Shown: positions 16,557 to 57,792 of the stretch, piece by piece
How positions within the stretch are numbered: position 1 is the first letter of the stretch
How the letters are laid out: the number at the start of each line of letters is the position of its first letter
The notes under the pieces: model-generated
Seen by the model: only the letters and a program-made list of their open reading frames with translations
What the model was told of the DNA's origin: nothing
Databases searched by the model: none
From: an uncultured Oscillospiraceae bacterium
Lineage (GTDB): Bacteria; Bacillota; Clostridia; UBA1381; UBA9506
NCBI GenBank assembly: GCA_964447945.1
Contig: CAYUUO010000001.1
Coordinates: 35,687-99,686 of the forward strand
Reading direction: 5' to 3'
DNA length: 64,000 nt
Made by a program: the position numbers and the translations under genes

Positions 16557-17495
16557 ATGAGTGAAATCTATCAGGCAGAAATTTGTGAATCGGCTGTTGC
16601 AGACAGCTATACGGGGCTGTATGCTTTGTATGATGAGCTGGTTGCAGCTCATCCTGAGTATGTTACCATGCATGTACTGGGTACGGACAGCTGGGGCAAC
16701 GAGGTCAGGGAATATGTGTTTACCACGCCCAACTACAATTCACGAAAGGATGCGCCGCGGAAGCTGGATAAGGAGATACAGAAGCCGGTGCTTCTGGTGA
16801 CCTCCGGGATTCACGGCGATGAAAAAACCTCAGTCGCCGGTGGATACATCTTTTTGAAGGCGCTTTGTGAGAATAAAGGGCCGGACAGCATGGCCACCCT
16901 GCGGGAAGCCATTTGTATCAAAATGATTCCCTGCGCTGTGCCGACAGGCTATTCCAACTGCAAACGCTTTAATCAGGACGGCGTGAATCTGAACCGCAAT
17001 TTCTATATTGGCTGGATGCCTTTGGGAGCACCGGGTGAGGCCAATTATGGTGGGCCAAGGCCGGCATCTGAATGTGAAACCAGATTGATTCAGAACTGGA
17101 TGGAAGCGAATGTGGATCATGCGTTTGCCTTTTTGGATTTACATAATACCCGCGGTTGCGAAACCGACGTCACATGGATTGCTCTTGTGGATCACGGCGT
17201 GCAGAAGCCGGAGCTGATTCAGGCCTATAACGGTTGCATTAATTCTCTGGCCCGGCACTGGCGGCAGGATTACGGCTTGCCCTACGATCGCAATTTAGGC
17301 TACGGCGGTCGGATTATTGCCATTGCCTGCGCCGCCCGATATGCCAATTATCTGGGCATTCCCTCTGCCATTTTGGAAAGTTCCTGGCAGCAGAAATTTA
17401 CAACGGATACCCAGCAGTACGGCCCGGTTACCAACGCCATCAGCGCGGAGTATTTCGGCAACCTGGTGCTGCGGCTGGCAAAGGAATATTTGTAA
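16557..17495 (+). CDS. M14-family zinc carboxypeptidase-like protein
   Basis: The RBS aaaggaag sits 10 nt upstream of the ATG at 16557. The HxxE zinc motif occurs in VLLVTSGIHGDEKTS, and a distal His candidate occurs in FAFLDLHNTRG. I see no signal peptide. Confidence 0.7.
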   Translation: MSEIYQAEICESAVADSYTGLYALYDELVAAHPEYVTMHVLGTDSWGNEVREYVFTTPNYNSRKDAPRKLDKEIQKPVLLVTSGIHGDEKTSVAGGYIFLKALCENKGPDSMATLREAICIKMIPCAVPTGYSNCKRFNQDGVNLNRNFYIGWMPLGAPGEANYGGPRPASECETRLIQNWMEANVDHAFAFLDLHNTRGCETDVTWIALVDHGVQKPELIQAYNGCINSLARHWRQDYGLPYDRNLGYGGRIIAIACAARYANYLGIPSAILESSWQQKFTTDTQQYGPVTNAISAEYFGNLVLRLAKEYL

Positions 17496-17501
17496 AACAA
17501 C

Positions 17502-17535
17502 AAAGGGGCTGTCGCATCAAGTCGGCAGCCCCTTT
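17502..17535 (+). terminator. Hairpin terminator after the M14 gene
   Basis: aaaggggctg (17502-17511) pairs with cagccccttt (17526-17535), followed by only a short T3 run. It begins 7 nt after the stop codon. Confidence 0.55.
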
Positions 17536-17786
17536 AGTGTGTCGATAAACCTTATATTATGTGTCAATATTCACATTTTCGTGACGAACCGCCGGCACCG
17601 GCCGGGTTACGGGGTTTCAAAGGGGCAGAGCCCCTTTGTCTGAGTTCCCCGAAGGGGAACGAAGAACCGCCCGGGCTCGGCGGGCGGAACGGGGCCCGGC
17701 TAAAAAAATTAACAGCATTTTGCAGTGAAAAAACTTTTTCGACAGTTTGAACGGGGCTGTCGCATCAAGTCGACAGCCCCGTTTTA
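17502..17786 (+). repeat. Copy A of a ~280-bp GC-rich, hairpin-dense noncoding element (inverted partner at 43962..44238)
   Basis: It lies in the 335-bp gap between convergent genes and is bounded by two near-identical 28-nt hairpins (17505-17532 and 17753-17780). The core has three GC hairpins (17618-17638, 17644-17660, 17667-17687). Its reverse complement matches 43962..44238 along the whole length. Confidence 0.85.
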
Positions 17787-17830
17787 TGATGGGTTGCTAC
17801 AGGGAACAAGACAGCCGTTTTAACCGGCAA

Positions 17831-18931
17831 TTATGAACAATCAGACAAAAGCTGATACTCATTACACATCAGCAAAAAGGCGCCGACACCAATGAGCATA
17901 TTCGTTTCAACGGGACGGTTTACATAGAATTTATAATCTCCCAAACAGGTACCGATACAGATGCGGGGCACAGATAAATAGGTTTCGCCGTCTGTTTCAA
18001 CCATTTGAATCAGGCCCTCAAACCCCTTGTCTGCGGCAGCCTTATAGCTGCTGTCCAGCCAGCCGAGGCGAACCGCCTTAGAAAGAGCGTAGGTATAAAG
18101 CGCAGAACAGGAGGATTCCAGCCAATTATCCGGGCGTGCTCCCTGATCGACAACCTGATACCACAGGCCGGTTTGCGGTTCCTGATATGTGGCCAGTGCC
18201 TTCAGCAGGCTGACGGCAACATCGATAAATTTCTTGCGTGACGGATGCTCTGTAGGCAGATATTCGGCAATATCCACGGCGGCCACGGCGTACCAGCCCA
18301 TGGCGCGTCCCCAGAAAACAGCGGAAAGTCCGGTTTCCGGATGGCTCCACGGTGCCGTTTTAGACTGATCCCATGCATGATATAAAAGACCGGTTTTATC
18401 ATCACGCATGTGCTCCCACATCAGCGTCATTTGTCTGCAAGCAATATCAATCAGCTCTTCGTCATGAAAGCGGAGCGCATAGCGGACAAGCATAGGGGAG
18501 GCCATATAAAAGCCGTCCAGCCACATTTGATTTGTGTGATGGAGCATATGCCAAAAACCGCCGTCCGGAGTCAGCTTCCAGTTTTTAAGATTGCGGATAA
18601 AAACATCCAGGGGCTTTTTATAGCGTTCGTCTCCGGTTGTTTCATATAAGTCAAACAACAGAACACCGGCCATCATGCCGTCCAGCTCGTAGTCGCGGTA
18701 GTTAACAACGGTGCCGTCGGGCGTTATCAGGCTGTCAACCCAATCCCTGATATATTGGGCATAAGCTTGCTTCCGGGTAGAATGGAAGGTTCGCTCAAAG
18801 CCGGATAAAAGAACCCCCTGGTGGTAGTGAAAGCGACCCCGCGGCGGAAGATCAGGCGCAGGGATTTTTTTCATAATGCTGTCGCAGCACAGCGCTGCGT
18901 AATCAACAGGTTTTTTATTGGTTATTTGCAC
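17831..18931 (-). CDS. GH105-type unsaturated uronyl hydrolase (YteR/YesR-like, Glyco_hydro_88 superfamily)
   Basis: It has a GTG start with the RBS aggagga 8 nt upstream. The motifs RFHYHQGVLLSG, NQMWLDGFYMASP and WGRAMGWYAVA match the YteR-type family. I see no signal peptide, so it is probably cytoplasmic. Confidence 0.8.
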   Translation of the reverse strand: MQITNKKPVDYAALCCDSIMKKIPAPDLPPRGRFHYHQGVLLSGFERTFHSTRKQAYAQYIRDWVDSLITPDGTVVNYRDYELDGMMAGVLLFDLYETTGDERYKKPLDVFIRNLKNWKLTPDGGFWHMLHHTNQMWLDGFYMASPMLVRYALRFHDEELIDIACRQMTLMWEHMRDDKTGLLYHAWDQSKTAPWSHPETGLSAVFWGRAMGWYAVAAVDIAEYLPTEHPSRKKFIDVAVSLLKALATYQEPQTGLWYQVVDQGARPDNWLESSCSALYTYALSKAVRLGWLDSSYKAAADKGFEGLIQMVETDGETYLSVPRICIGTCLGDYKFYVNRPVETNMLIGVGAFLLMCNEYQLLSDCS

Positions 18932-19270: not shown

Positions 19271-19309
19271 AAAAAAACAAGCGGGGCTGCAGCAAAACGG
19301 CAGCCCCGC
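19271..19309 (-). terminator. Rho-independent terminator of the AraC-type regulator gene
   Basis: The 10-bp GC stem gcggggctgc/gcagccccgc (19281-19290 / 19300-19309) is followed on the minus strand by ttgttttttt. Confidence 0.75.
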
Positions 19310-19377
19310 AAAACATATAATCAAGAATAAAATATTCTCCAATAACCGAAGGGGCTGTAGCATTGTCGACAGCCTCT

Positions 19378-43961: not shown

Positions 43962-44238
43962 GAGGCTGTCGCATTTAGTCGACAGCCTCTCAGACTGTCG
44001 AAAAAGTTTTTTTCTGCAAAATAGTGTTAATTTTTTTAGCCAGGCCCCGTTCCGCCCGCCGAGCCCGGGCGGTTCTTCGTTCCCCGTCGGGGAACGAAGG
44101 CAAAGGGGCTCTGCCCCTTTGAAACCCCGTAATCAGGCCGTGTGGGCAGGGCTCGGCAAGAAAATGTAAATATTTACGCATCATAAAAGGTTTATCGATA
44201 CGCTGAGGGACTGTAGCTTTGCTACGGTCCCCTTTTTC
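43962..44238 (-). repeat. Copy B of the ~280-bp GC-rich hairpin-dense element, inverted relative to copy A
   Basis: The reverse complement aligns with 17502..17786 from the AT-rich arm (tcgataaacctt...acattttc), through the three GC hairpins (44101-44121, 44075-44099, 44052-44072), to the cgacag/hairpin end (43962-43989). It also lies between convergent genes. Confidence 0.85.
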
Positions 44239-57362: not shown

Positions 57363-57608
57363 ATGAAAAGCAAACTTTTGTTAGGCGCCATTTCTTTAAT
57401 GGTAGTTGCCGGCGCTTTGGTTGGCTGCAACGGTAGCAAGAACCCTGCTTCTTCAGCGGCCCCCAGCGCTTCTGCAAGTGCATCTGCGAAGCCCTCTGCT
57501 TCTGCTGCTGCATCTGCTGATGCTTCTGCTTCTGCTGACGCTTCCGCTTCTGCATCTGCTGATGCTTCTGCGGCTCCCAGCGCTAGCGCTTCTGCAAAGG
57601 CTCAGTAA
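57363..57608 (+). CDS. Small (81-aa) lipoprotein with an Ala/Ser/Asp low-complexity tail
   Basis: The RBS gaggagga sits 8 nt upstream of the ATG at 57363. The signal has the lipobox ALVGC. The mature part is almost entirely SA/SASA/DASA repeats. Confidence 0.6.
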   Translation: MKSKLLLGAISLMVVAGALVGCNGSKNPASSAAPSASASASAKPSASAAASADASASADASASASADASAAPSASASAKAQ

Positions 57609-57619
57609 CATTACTTCAT

Positions 57620-57661
57620 AAAAAAATAGACAAAGCACTTTGTGCTTTGTCTATTTTTTTA
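57620..57661. terminator. Bidirectional rho-independent terminator
   Basis: aaaaaaatagacaaagcac pairs with gtgctttgtctattttttt, with an A-run on the 5' side and a T-run on the 3' side. It lies between convergent genes. Confidence 0.8.
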
Positions 57662-57792
57662 TGGCTCTTTGTCAATAGTTGGGGTCAAAAAAATCCAGAA
57701 AATGAATAGCCCGTGCAGCCGCCGATTAGGCGGCTGCTTGTTTATTAAGTTGTTTTAGGGAAAATATATGTAAAATACGGTTTCTGAATCTT

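What the first reader, a model, noticed from the sequence alone, without database searches (positions are those of the whole stretch)
17502..17786. A ~280-bp GC-rich, hairpin-dense noncoding element present in two copies: candidate structured RNA or MITE/REP-like element
Copy A fills the gap between convergent genes. Its parts, in order, are:
- A hairpin (17505-17532).
- An AT-rich arm (tcgataaacctt...acattttc).
- A GC-rich core with three consecutive hairpins: caaagggg-cagag-cccctttg, gttcccc-gaa-ggggaac and ccgcccg-ggctcgg-cgggcgg.
- An A-rich linker.
- A second hairpin (17753-17780) followed by TTTT.

The two bounding hairpins are 27/28 identical, including their loops. That pattern is what an insertion into, or duplication of, a terminator hairpin would produce.

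Copy B (43962..44238, opposite strand) aligns over the entire length. About nine in ten positions are identical across the ~150-nt core by my manual alignment. The small ORFs it contains change frame between copies, so conservation is at the nucleotide or RNA level rather than the protein level.
Basis: seen in the sequence. Interest (0 to 1): 0.65.

Follow-up and report, generated by a model that had tools for sequence, protein, structure and literature searches.

The report
Mobile hairpin-rich repeat beside terminator hairpins
The two-copy, hairpin-dense element is real, matches no known RNA family, and is best read as a small non-coding mobile repeat that sits beside terminator hairpins between convergent genes, which is an ordinary kind of bacterial repeat rather than a proven new RNA gene.

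Summary
**Observation.** It is confirmed. Copy A (about 17502-17785, +) and copy B (about 43962-44231, -) align at 85% over about 258 nt. A 140-nt core is 91% identical. There are no further copies in the window and no Rfam match. The small ORFs shift frame between the copies.

**Key result.** A closely related MAG (GCA_051887475.1) has the same convergent gene pair as locus B, but with only one terminator hairpin between the genes. Copy B is therefore a 241-nt insertion at the foot of that hairpin. The same MAG holds a third, B-like copy.

**Anatomy.**
- The core is bounded by imperfect 18-nt inverted repeats.
- No transposase was found among 28 of the 34 large ORFs that were scanned.
- The bounding hairpins belong to a REP-like family. 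Members at independent loci are 24-27/28 identical, so the 27/28 match at copy A does not prove a target duplication.

**Conserved module.** The two-hairpin module (17639-17700) also occurs in Monoglobus pectinilyticus. Eight of its 19 stem pairs changed on both sides, while the loop GGCTCGG is invariant.

**Verdict.** This is a MITE/BIME-like, insertion-polymorphic mosaic repeat: a new member of a known kind. A roughly 205-nt transcript from an internal promoter-like site remains possible but untested.

The parts
17502..17535 (+). Copy A, left REP-like hairpin (X_A), directly after the peptidase stop codon (17493-17495)
   Evidence: It is 27/28 identical to the right hairpin.
17533..17550 (+). 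Copy A, left terminal inverted repeat TTTAGTGTGTCGATAAAC
   Evidence: It matches the reverse complement of 17734-17751 at 12/18 positions. Random 18-mer pairs reach 12/18 with frequency 3e-4.
17542..17571 (+). Promoter-like TCGATA, 18-nt spacer, AATATT. Both hexamers are invariant in four copies while the spacer varies.
   Evidence: It scores 8/12 against the consensus, below the scanner's threshold. This is an inference only.
17580..17608 (+). Most divergent segment between copies (CGTGACGAACCGCCGGCACCGGCCGGGTT in A, CTTGCCGAGCCCTGCCCACACGGCCTGATT in B)
17609..17638 (+). ACGGGGTTT followed by hairpin 1 (CAAAGGGGC-aga-GCCCCTTTG), identical in both copies
17639..17665 (+). Hairpin 2 (12 stem positions, 10 of them paired in copy A; loop GAA)
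   Evidence: Seven pairs changed on both sides relative to the Monoglobus copies.
17667..17687 (+). Hairpin 3 (CCGCCCG-GGCTCGG-CGGGCGG); the loop is invariant in all 8 copies
   Evidence: The closing pair is C-G in the window and T-A in Monoglobus.
17688..17733 (+). Conserved tail AACGGGGCCCGGC followed by an A-rich linker
17734..17751 (+). Copy A, right terminal inverted repeat CTTTTTCGACAGTTTGAA
17750..17785 (+). Copy A, right REP-like hairpin followed by TTTT. It is probably the resident terminator of this gene gap.
   Evidence: Contig L002 from another sample has this hairpin type directly after the peptidase stop codon.
43991..44231 (-). Copy B, the whole 241-nt insertion relative to the empty site (hairpin X_B plus core); boundaries uncertain by 2 nt
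   Evidence: alignment A2
44207..44231 (-). Copy B, carried hairpin X_B (GGGACCGTAGCAAAGCTACAGTCCC). Read on the + strand, it sits against the resident T tract CTTTTTCTAGG and scores as a terminator.
44190..44207 (-). Copy B, left terminal inverted repeat CTCAGCGTATCGATAAAC
   Evidence: 13/18 against the right repeat
44027..44130 (-). Copy B, ACGGGG followed by hairpins 1, 2 and 3 and the conserved tail
43989..44006 (-). Copy B, right terminal inverted repeat CTTTTTCGACAGTCTGAG
43962..43989 (.). Resident REP-like terminator hairpin of locus B. It is 27/29 identical to the single hairpin of the empty site. The 12 nt TTTTTCTAGGTG that follow it in the MAG are missing here.
19281..19377 (+). Two further members of the REP-like hairpin family (19281-19309 and 19350-19377), with no element between them

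Best explanation
**What it is.** It is a non-autonomous, non-coding mobile repeat of the MITE/BIME kind. It has two parts:
- a core of about 216 nt bounded by imperfect 18-nt inverted repeats;
- one GC-rich hairpin (X) carried at its left end.

**Where it sits.** The unit lies at the foot of a resident REP-like terminator hairpin in the gap between convergent genes. The core therefore ends up between two hairpins. The hairpin it carries sits against the resident A/T tract and can replace the terminator that the insertion displaced. This placement does little harm to the neighbouring genes.

**Why the hairpins persist.** Hairpins 1-3 in the core are kept by selection as folded single strands. 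They may be needed in DNA by whatever enzyme moves the element, or in RNA.

**Shown.** The two-copy repeat, the insertion at locus B, a third copy, the inverted repeats, the compensatory changes in hairpins 2 and 3, and the absence of coding capacity. No transposase was found among the window ORFs scanned.

**Inferred.** That the element moves as 'hairpin plus core', that it prefers hairpin feet, and the identity of the enzyme that moves it, which is unknown.
For: **Empty site.** MAG contig L021 has the same gene pair, with flanks about 98-100% identical. Between the genes is a single hairpin with a 20-bp stem. The window has 241 extra nt at the 5' foot of that hairpin.

**Third copy.** In the same MAG, a B-like 5' arm starts directly after a hairpin-1-type hairpin.

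**Terminal inverted repeats.** They match at 12/18 in A and 13/18 in B. Random 18-mer pairs reach these values with frequency 3e-4 and 9e-5.

**Assembly breaks.** Three of the four contigs of the same organism (sample SRR16327184) were read to their ends, and each ends inside the element. The other two flanking contigs stop within about 130-160 nt of the genes; their ends were not read.

**No coding capacity.** The ORFs shift frame between copies.

**No mobility gene nearby.** Pfam found no transposase or recombinase in 28 of the 34 large window ORFs.

**Hairpin family.** The bounding hairpins form a family. There are five to six members in the window, and members at independent loci are 24-27/28 identical.

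**Conserved module.** Hairpins 2 and 3 plus the tail also occur in M. pectinilyticus, as six copies in the stretches fetched. These copies are often in tandem and sit downstream of terminators of co-oriented genes. In the alignment, 93% of cells are paired and 8 of 19 pairs changed on both sides. Controls with slid partners give 34-62% paired.
Against: - There is no clear target-site duplication, only a 2-nt overlap (AG at B, AA at A).
- The inverted repeats are weak.
- No autonomous partner with the same ends was found.
- Copy number in the whole genome is unknown. Two copies sharing 32- and 42-nt exact strings are enough to break k=31 assemblies.
- At locus B the insertion is accompanied by an unexplained 12-nt deletion.
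- The origin of hairpin X is unresolved. X_A resembles the resident hairpin and X_B does not.
- The conserved hexamers, a terminator at copy A and the compensatory changes fit an RNA gene equally well.
Confidence: 0.6

Rival explanations
1. It is a family of small-RNA genes. An internal promoter (TCGATA, 18 nt, AATATT) would start transcription near CGTGAC (about 17580). The RNA of about 205 nt would have a variable 5' segment, a conserved three-hairpin scaffold, an A-rich linker, and the resident hairpin plus U tract as terminator. On this view mobility is secondary: the gene rides on a cassette.
For: - Both hexamers are invariant in four copies, while 6-7 spacer positions vary.
- A similar AT-rich stretch followed by CCGTGAC/CCGCGAC precedes module M1 in Monoglobus, which is followed by T runs.
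- Copy A ends in a 13-bp hairpin followed by TTTT.
- The folds have z-scores of -5.5 and -6.6.
- Hairpins 2 and 3 show compensatory changes with invariant loops and linkers.
- The most divergent stretch lies just downstream of the putative start, as a seed or guide region would.
Against: - The promoter match is only 8/12, and the scanner finds none.
- The 3' hairpin of copy B has no U tract on either strand.
- The locus is dispensable in a strain about 98% identical.
- There is no Rfam family.
- G-U versus A-C asymmetry gives two cases each way, so no strand is favoured.
- Almost all the covariation comes from one split, window lineage versus Monoglobus.
Confidence: 0.22
2. It is a BIME-like mosaic with a role in cis. 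The REP-like hairpins plus the hairpin-rich linker would act as a compound, bidirectional terminator or a 3'-end mRNA stabiliser for the convergent genes. It would spread by recombination between REP-like hairpins rather than by transposition.
For: - It always lies in convergent-gene gaps, just after a co-oriented gene.
- It is flanked by members of a near-identical hairpin family.
- X_B lies against the resident T tract and scores as a terminator on the + strand.
- The modules are arranged differently in Monoglobus: M2 with M1, U with M1, and tandem arrays.
Against: - The empty site already holds a perfect 20-bp bidirectional terminator, so the insertion adds nothing obvious.
- A 216-nt linker is far longer than the linker motifs of BIMEs.
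- The homology available for recombination is only about 28-34 nt.
Confidence: 0.12
3. It is a relic of a larger mobile element. The hairpins would be single-strand DNA signals, such as an origin of transfer or a single-strand origin, left behind after the coding part was lost.
For: The 20-mer at hairpin 1 recurs in metagenome contigs. In one it lies about 60 nt upstream of a Mob_Pre relaxase gene, beside primase and AAA_25 genes. In another it lies beside a VapE/DUF5906 primase-helicase gene.
Against: - Only hairpin 1 is shared with those contigs.
- About one chance hit is expected for a 20-mer in collections of this size.
- There are no mobility genes in the window.
- The element is a clean 241-nt insertion, not a decayed island.
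Confidence: 0.04
4. It encodes a small protein of 63-64 aa.
For: ORFs 17559-17750 (+) and 43990-44184 (-) have similar length.
Against: Two 1-nt indels put about 170 nt of the shared core in different frames. There is no ribosome-binding site upstream.
Confidence: 0.01

Closest known systems
BIMEs / RIP (RIB) elements of enterobacteria: mosaics of REP palindromes separated by defined linker motifs (from my own knowledge)
   Same: - The outer hairpins are members of a near-identical palindrome family found at gene ends.
- An inner non-coding motif lies between them.
- The element is intergenic, often between convergent genes.
- The modules are shuffled between loci and genera.
   Different: - The inner motif here is about 216 nt with three stable GC hairpins and its own inverted repeats. 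BIME linkers are about 10-100 nt.
- The host is a Clostridia lineage.
- No RAYT-type transposase has been seen.
- Genome-wide copy number is unknown.
Bacterial MITEs, such as Correia/NEMIS, RUP and bcr1 (from my own knowledge)
   Same: - It is small and non-coding.
- It has terminal inverted repeats.
- It occurs in several copies.
- It is present or absent between strains.
- It has strong secondary structure.
- It carries possible internal promoter and terminator signals.
   Different: - The inverted repeats are weak (12-13/18).
- There is no target-site duplication beyond a 2-nt overlap.
- It carries an extra hairpin at one end.
- No parent insertion sequence is known.
Elements that target hairpins or terminators: IS1397 in BIMEs, IS110/IS1111-family elements in REPs, class C group II introns after terminators (from my own knowledge)
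   Same: The insertion lies exactly at the foot of a palindromic terminator, a position that spares the neighbouring genes.
   Different: Those are autonomous elements or ribozymes of 0.7-2 kb. This one is 241-248 nt, encodes nothing, and matches no intron or other Rfam model.
Monoglobus pectinilyticus intergenic modules M2, M1 and U (found here, not annotated in the record)
   Same: The 69-nt module of hairpin 2, hairpin 3 and AAC.GGGCC.GGC is homologous at 81-83% with a gapless alignment. It also lies just downstream of terminators.
   Different: - In Monoglobus the module is joined to a different partner (M1) and is often in tandem arrays.
- Those copies lack hairpin 1, the window's inverted repeats and the flanking REP-like hairpins.

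Membership tests
MITE | Short (under about 600 bp) with no coding capacity | tested here: met
   The insert is 241-248 nt. The ORFs shift frame between copies.
MITE | Terminal inverted repeats | tested here: inconclusive
   The 18-nt repeats match at 12/18 (A) and 13/18 (B), with random-pair frequencies of 3e-4 and 9e-5. A and B are homologous copies, so these are not independent tests.
MITE | Target-site duplication flanking the element | tested here: not met
   At locus B, comparing filled and empty sites shows only a 2-nt overlap (AG) plus a 12-nt deletion. At locus A the flanking hairpins are alike, but they belong to a family that is near-identical genome-wide.
MITE | Insertion polymorphism and multiple copies | tested here: met
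   Locus B is empty in GCA_051887475.1. There are three distinct copies: A, B and a third in L019. Total copy number was not obtainable.
MITE | A related autonomous element with the same ends | not testable with these tools
   Pfam found no transposase in 28 of the 34 large window ORFs.
REP/BIME | A family of imperfect palindromes of about 20-40 nt, repeated at gene ends | tested here: met
   This applies to the bounding hairpins only: GGGGCTGTCGCAT.AAGTCGACAGCCCC at 17505, 17753, 43962 and 19350, with variants at 19281 and 44207, and also in L020, L021 and L002. Members are 24-27/28 identical across loci.
REP/BIME | Mosaic of palindromes separated by short conserved linkers; hundreds of copies; an associated RAYT transposase | tested here: inconclusive
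   The hairpin-core-hairpin layout fits. The linker is 216 nt, the copy number is unknown, and no RAYT was seen in the window.
IS200/IS605-derived PATE | Similar subterminal hairpins at both ends, and insertion 3' of a fixed 4-5-nt target | tested here: not met
   The right end of the insert has no stable hairpin. The left flanks differ (ACAA at A, AAAG at B). The ends of the Monoglobus IS200 copy are unrelated.
Any Rfam 15 family (including group II introns, ribozymes, riboswitches and known sRNAs) | Match to the covariance model | tested here: not met
   There were no gathering-threshold hits in the 64-kb window. In 17400-17900 at E up to 10, only two spurious hits on the terminator hairpin appeared. 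Nothing relevant was found in the Monoglobus region.
Integron attC site | R''(RYYYAAC)...R'(GTTRRRY) imperfect palindrome of 57-141 nt following a cassette ORF | tested here: not met
   There are no core sites in the window element. In Monoglobus the GTTAGG and CCTAAC motifs occur in the wrong order.
Independent sRNA gene | Own promoter, discrete transcript, intrinsic terminator, conservation across relatives | not testable with these tools
   Only sequence hints are available: invariant hexamers and a terminator at copy A. Copy B lacks a U tract. The locus is absent from a sister strain. No expression data are available.

The most novel reading that the evidence does not exclude
The conserved module of hairpins 1-3, hairpins 2-3 of which are shared with Monoglobus, would be the scaffold of a previously undescribed structured RNA. 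It would be carried on a mobile cassette that supplies its own promoter and borrows the resident terminator. The divergent segment of about 28 nt at the 5' end would act as a copy-specific seed or guide. That would make it a mobile family of regulatory or guide-like RNAs in gut Clostridia.
Probability: 0.12. Interest if true: 0.65.

Novelty: new member of a known kind. Interest (0 to 1): 0.3.

Why it matters
- **Terminator remodelling.** The finding documents, with a filled/empty site pair, how a small repeat in an uncultured gut Clostridia lineage lands at a bidirectional terminator. It brings a replacement hairpin with it, and so remodels transcription ends between convergent genes.
- **Assembly and strain typing.** The element fragments metagenome assemblies: contigs of this organism end inside it. 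It could also serve as a strain marker.
- **A lead for RNA work.** The 69-nt two-hairpin module has an invariant loop and compensatory stem changes across two Clostridia lineages. It is a reasonable candidate for covariance-model searches and RNA-seq follow-up.
- **Limit.** None of this overturns current understanding of bacterial repeats.

Tried and rejected
- **Rfam.** Scans of the window, the element and related loci found no family.
- **Genome-collection scan.** A core 20-mer gave one hit, in a Planctomycetota MAG (L006). That site is a terminator-like sequence matching 40/42 nt of the 3' half of the module, with a 6-nt gap. It does not fit the structural model. About one chance 20-mer hit is expected, but the extended match is unexplained.
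- **Choice of pattern.** The 20-mer was a poor choice.
- **Other collections.**
  - The metagenome scan found only hairpin-1 look-alikes.
  - The viral-contig scan found nothing.
  - The phage collection found nothing.
- **Orthologous loci in more distant relatives.** Peptidase homologues at 69-73% identity have different gene order downstream, so they say nothing about the element.
- **Site-specific integration with hybrid att hairpins.** Rejected, because at locus B both arms of the right hairpin are the resident ones.
- **attC, IS200/IS605 PATE and class C intron readings.** Rejected; see the membership table.
- **Strand test by G-U versus A-C mismatches.** Inconclusive.
- **Targets complementary to the variable 5' segments.** Only chance-level matches were found.
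- **Literature.** Searches by sequence string and by topic found nothing relevant.

Full report
**1.

MAFFT gives 85% mean column identity over the whole alignment. Local BLASTN gives 84.9% over 258 nt. The repeat finder reports an inverted pair of 140 nt at 91% (17599-17738 / 44001-44140) and a second of 60 nt at 80%.

Two core strings of 30 and 40 nt occur exactly twice in the window and never in 100 shuffles. No third copy of the core or of its ends exists in the 64 kb.

The three core hairpins and the two bounding hairpins are as described. The bounding pair at copy A is 27/28 identical. Both copies fold much better than shuffles, with z = -5.5 and -6.6.

The GC-rich part is the core, at 70% against 52% for the window. 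The whole element is 51% GC.

Both copies sit in gaps between convergent genes, and each has the same orientation as the gene upstream of it:
- Copy A lies between an M14 peptidase gene and a GH88 gene.
- Copy B lies between a GDSL-like gene and a 701-aa gene.

The 63- and 64-aa ORFs share their start and end, but two 1-nt indels put the core in different frames. The element is not coding.

**2. It is not a known RNA family**

cmscan of the whole window at gathering thresholds finds nothing. With E up to 10 on 17400-17900 it finds only two spurious hits on the terminator hairpin.

**3. The decisive evidence is an empty site**

Exact-protein look-ups show the same organism in Logan assemblies of SRR16327184. 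Three of its four contigs were read to their ends, and each ends inside the element. The contigs carrying the GH88 and GDSL-like genes stop about 130-160 nt past those genes; their ends were not read.

Cluster look-up then revealed a sister MAG, GCA_051887475.1, labelled 'Clostridia bacterium'. Its contig L021 carries the GDSL-like gene and the convergent 701-aa gene, with flanks about 98-100% identical to the window, but the gap between them is only 92 nt.

The alignment compares the two states:
- **MAG (empty):** CCTAGAAAAAG-AGGCTGTCGACTTAATGCGACAGCCCC-TTTTTCTAGGTG-GGCGGGCAC. This is one hairpin with a 20-bp stem, a textbook bidirectional terminator.
- **Window (filled):** CCTAGAAAAAG, then a different hairpin (X_B, GGGACCGTAGCAAAGCTACAGTCCC), then the core, then the resident hairpin (27/29 identical to the MAG's), then GGCGGGCAC.

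Copy B is therefore a 241-nt insertion (43991-44231) at the 5' foot of the resident hairpin. There is a 2-nt overlap (AG) and no target duplication. The 12 nt TTTTTCTAGGTG on the far side are lost.

Read on the window + strand, X_B now lies against the resident T tract and scores as a terminator. The insertion thus brings a replacement hairpin for the one it displaced.

**4. There are more copies**

In the same MAG, locus A is filled (L019). After the A-type 5' arm and hairpin 1, the sequence continues directly with CAGCGTGTCGATAAACCTTTTATTAAGCATAAATATTCACATTTTCTTGCCG. This is the start of a B-like copy that is identical to neither A nor B.

This could be a nested insertion, or the assembler may have joined two loci through the shared repeat. 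Either way it is a third copy, and its left neighbour is again a GC-rich hairpin ending in CCCCTTT.

A contig from another sample (L002, SRR16327210) has the right-type hairpin of locus A directly after the peptidase stop codon. This is what an empty site at A would look like. The contig ends inside the hairpin, so it is only suggestive.

**5. Anatomy of the mobile unit**

The core is bounded by imperfect 18-nt inverted repeats:
- A: TTTAGTGTGTCGATAAAC / CTTTTTCGACAGTTTGAA, 12/18.
- B: CTCAGCGTATCGATAAAC / CTTTTTCGACAGTCTGAG, 13/18.

Random 18-mer pairs from the window reach these values with frequency 3e-4 and 9e-5.

Pfam scans covered 28 of the 34 large window ORFs. They show a polysaccharide-utilisation cluster, HydABC-type hydrogenase genes, truB and ribF, and no transposase or recombinase. 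The element is therefore non-autonomous.

**6. The bounding hairpins are a REP-like family, not a duplicated target**

Hairpins of the type GGGGCTGTCGCAT.AAGTCGACAGCCCC occur in several places:
- at 17505, 17753, 43962 and 19350 in the window;
- in variant form at 19281 and 44207;
- in L020, L021 and L002.

Members at unrelated loci are 24-27/28 identical to the right hairpin of copy A. The resident hairpin of locus B in the MAG is among them.

The 27/28 identity of the two hairpins at copy A is therefore what two family members would show anyway. At locus B the two bounding hairpins are clearly different.

The layout of hairpin, long inner motif, hairpin is closest to the BIME/RIP mosaics of enterobacteria (my own knowledge). 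The inverted repeats and the presence/absence polymorphism are MITE-like.

**7. A conserved two-hairpin module reaches beyond this species**

BLASTN of copy A against PLSDB hits only Monoglobus pectinilyticus TSDC17.2-1.2. The records called 'plasmids' there carry spo0A, dnaK, rpoD and ATP synthase genes, so they are chromosome pieces.

The match is the 69-nt module of hairpin 2, hairpin 3 and AAC.GGGCC.GGC, at 81-83% identity with a gapless alignment.

On eight copies (two from the window, six from Monoglobus):
- 93% of cells are paired.
- 8 of 19 pairs changed on both sides, seven of them in hairpin 2. In hairpin 3 the closing pair went from C-G to T-A.
- The loop GGCTCGG and the linkers never vary.
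- Sliding the partners by 1-3 columns drops pairing to 34-62%.

The stems are therefore under selection to pair. Nearly all the changes fall on one split, window lineage versus Monoglobus, so this is not many independent events.

A covariance model of the module finds only these eight copies in the 311 kb held.

In Monoglobus the module is joined to another module, M1 (CCGYGACTGCGCGCCTTACGYGG, a covarying hairpin, then CCCTACCGATGCTTGC and a T run). M1 occurs at about 39 places, alone, with a third module U, or in tandem arrays of 244-393 nt. These units also lie just downstream of terminators of co-oriented genes, for example after spo0A. The family is modular and shuffled, as BIME and BOX repeats are.

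**8. DNA or RNA?**

Points for an RNA:
- The hexamers TCGATA and AATATT, 18 nt apart, are invariant in four copies while the spacer varies.
- Monoglobus has a similar AT-rich stretch about 8 nt before CCGTGAC.
- Copy A ends in a 13-bp hairpin followed by TTTT.
- The most divergent segment lies just after the putative start.

Points against:
- The promoter match is only 8/12, and the scanner reports none.
- The 3' hairpin of copy B has no U tract on either strand.
- The locus is dispensable in a sister strain.
- Mismatches that would be G-U on one strand occur twice in each sense.

No expression data are available. The tools cannot settle whether the hairpins matter in single-stranded DNA or in RNA.

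**9. Unexplained loose ends**

- The 20-mer at hairpin 1 recurs in unrelated metagenome contigs. In L007 it lies about 60 nt upstream of a Mob_Pre relaxase gene. In L009/L010 it lies beside a VapE/DUF5906 primase-helicase gene.
- A Planctomycetota MAG has a terminator-like site matching 40/42 nt of the 3' half of the module.
- About one chance hit per scan is expected for a 20-mer in collections of that size. The extended similarity is not explained by chance. It may reflect exchange of hairpin modules among mobile DNA.

**10. Verdict**

This is a real, non-coding, insertion-polymorphic mosaic repeat. It consists of an inverted-repeat-bounded core carrying one hairpin, lodged at the foot of REP-like terminator hairpins. 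It is a new member of a known kind (MITE/BIME-like).

The mechanism of movement is unresolved: there is no target duplication and no partner element. An RNA product is possible but untested.

Interest is modest. The most useful products are the filled/empty site pair and the 69-nt covarying module.

Noticed in passing
window 17505-17532, 17753-17780, 19281-19309, 19350-19377, 43962-43989, 44207-44231: A REP-like family of near-identical terminator hairpins (GGGGCTGTCGCAT.AAGTCGACAGCCCC) sits at gene ends. Members at independent loci and in sister strains are 24-27/28 identical. Two lie 40 nt apart at 19281-19377, like a REP doublet.
   Followed up: partly
L012 23258-24420 (M. pectinilyticus NZ_OY725742.1, about 153257-154419): About four tandem units of roughly 334 nt each encode a 22-aa hydrophobic peptide (MEYVYIIIFMIVFITLIESIKK). 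Each unit has a strong ribosome-binding site and its own terminator. They look like unannotated type I toxin genes. There is a weak antisense ohsC-like Rfam hit (E = 0.49) at one 3' end.
   Followed up: no
L012 24691-25570; L015 10750-11780; L016 20008-20400; L017 3423-20330; L018 13412-13990: Monoglobus module M1 (CCGYGACTGCGCGCCTTACGYGG, a covarying hairpin, then CCCTACCGATGCTTGC and a T run) occurs at about 39 places. It is often preceded by module U (a hairpin followed by CTCGTTAGGTGAGC). Several copies carry an insertion of about 110 nt inside the hairpin loop. Some converge on, or overlap, XRE-type HTH genes or their remnants. It is not in Rfam.
   Followed up: partly
L006 4879-4920 (Planctomycetota MAG JAPOLP010000009.1): A terminator-like site just after a gene matches 40/42 nt of the window's hairpin-2 3' arm, hairpin-3 5' half and tail, with a 6-nt gap. 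It lacks the hairpin-3 stem and does not fit model R1. Similarity across phyla is unexplained.
   Followed up: partly
L007 7428-7460; L009 2203-2235; L008 200-219: The string ACGGGGTTTCAAAGGGGCAG, with the rest of hairpin 1 in L007 and L009 only, recurs in unrelated metagenome contigs beside mobility genes (Mob_Pre relaxase with primase; VapE/DUF5906 primase-helicase; a Fic protein). In L008 the two stem halves are separated by an insert of about 110 nt.
   Followed up: partly
window 57617-57663 and 57468-57605: A perfect 22-bp-stem AT-rich palindrome (47 nt) lies immediately after a short ORF. That ORF ends in a 12/18-nt-periodic GCTTCTGCT repeat, which encodes a low-complexity Ala/Ser-rich tail.
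   Followed up: no
window 17831-43952: The two inverted copies bracket a gene cluster of about 26 kb that looks like a polysaccharide-utilisation locus (GH88, an AraC-type regulator, ABC sugar transporter genes, SLH-domain proteins, a second GH88-like gene). The sister MAG has the same gene junction at locus B without the element, so the bracketing is probably coincidental.
   Followed up: partly
PLSDB records NZ_OY725726-NZ_OY725743: Records labelled as circular 'plasmids' of M. pectinilyticus TSDC17.2-1.2 carry core chromosomal genes (spo0A, dnaK, rpoD, dnaG, the atp operon, a CRISPR-Cas I-C system). They are almost certainly chromosome fragments that were mislabelled.
   Followed up: no
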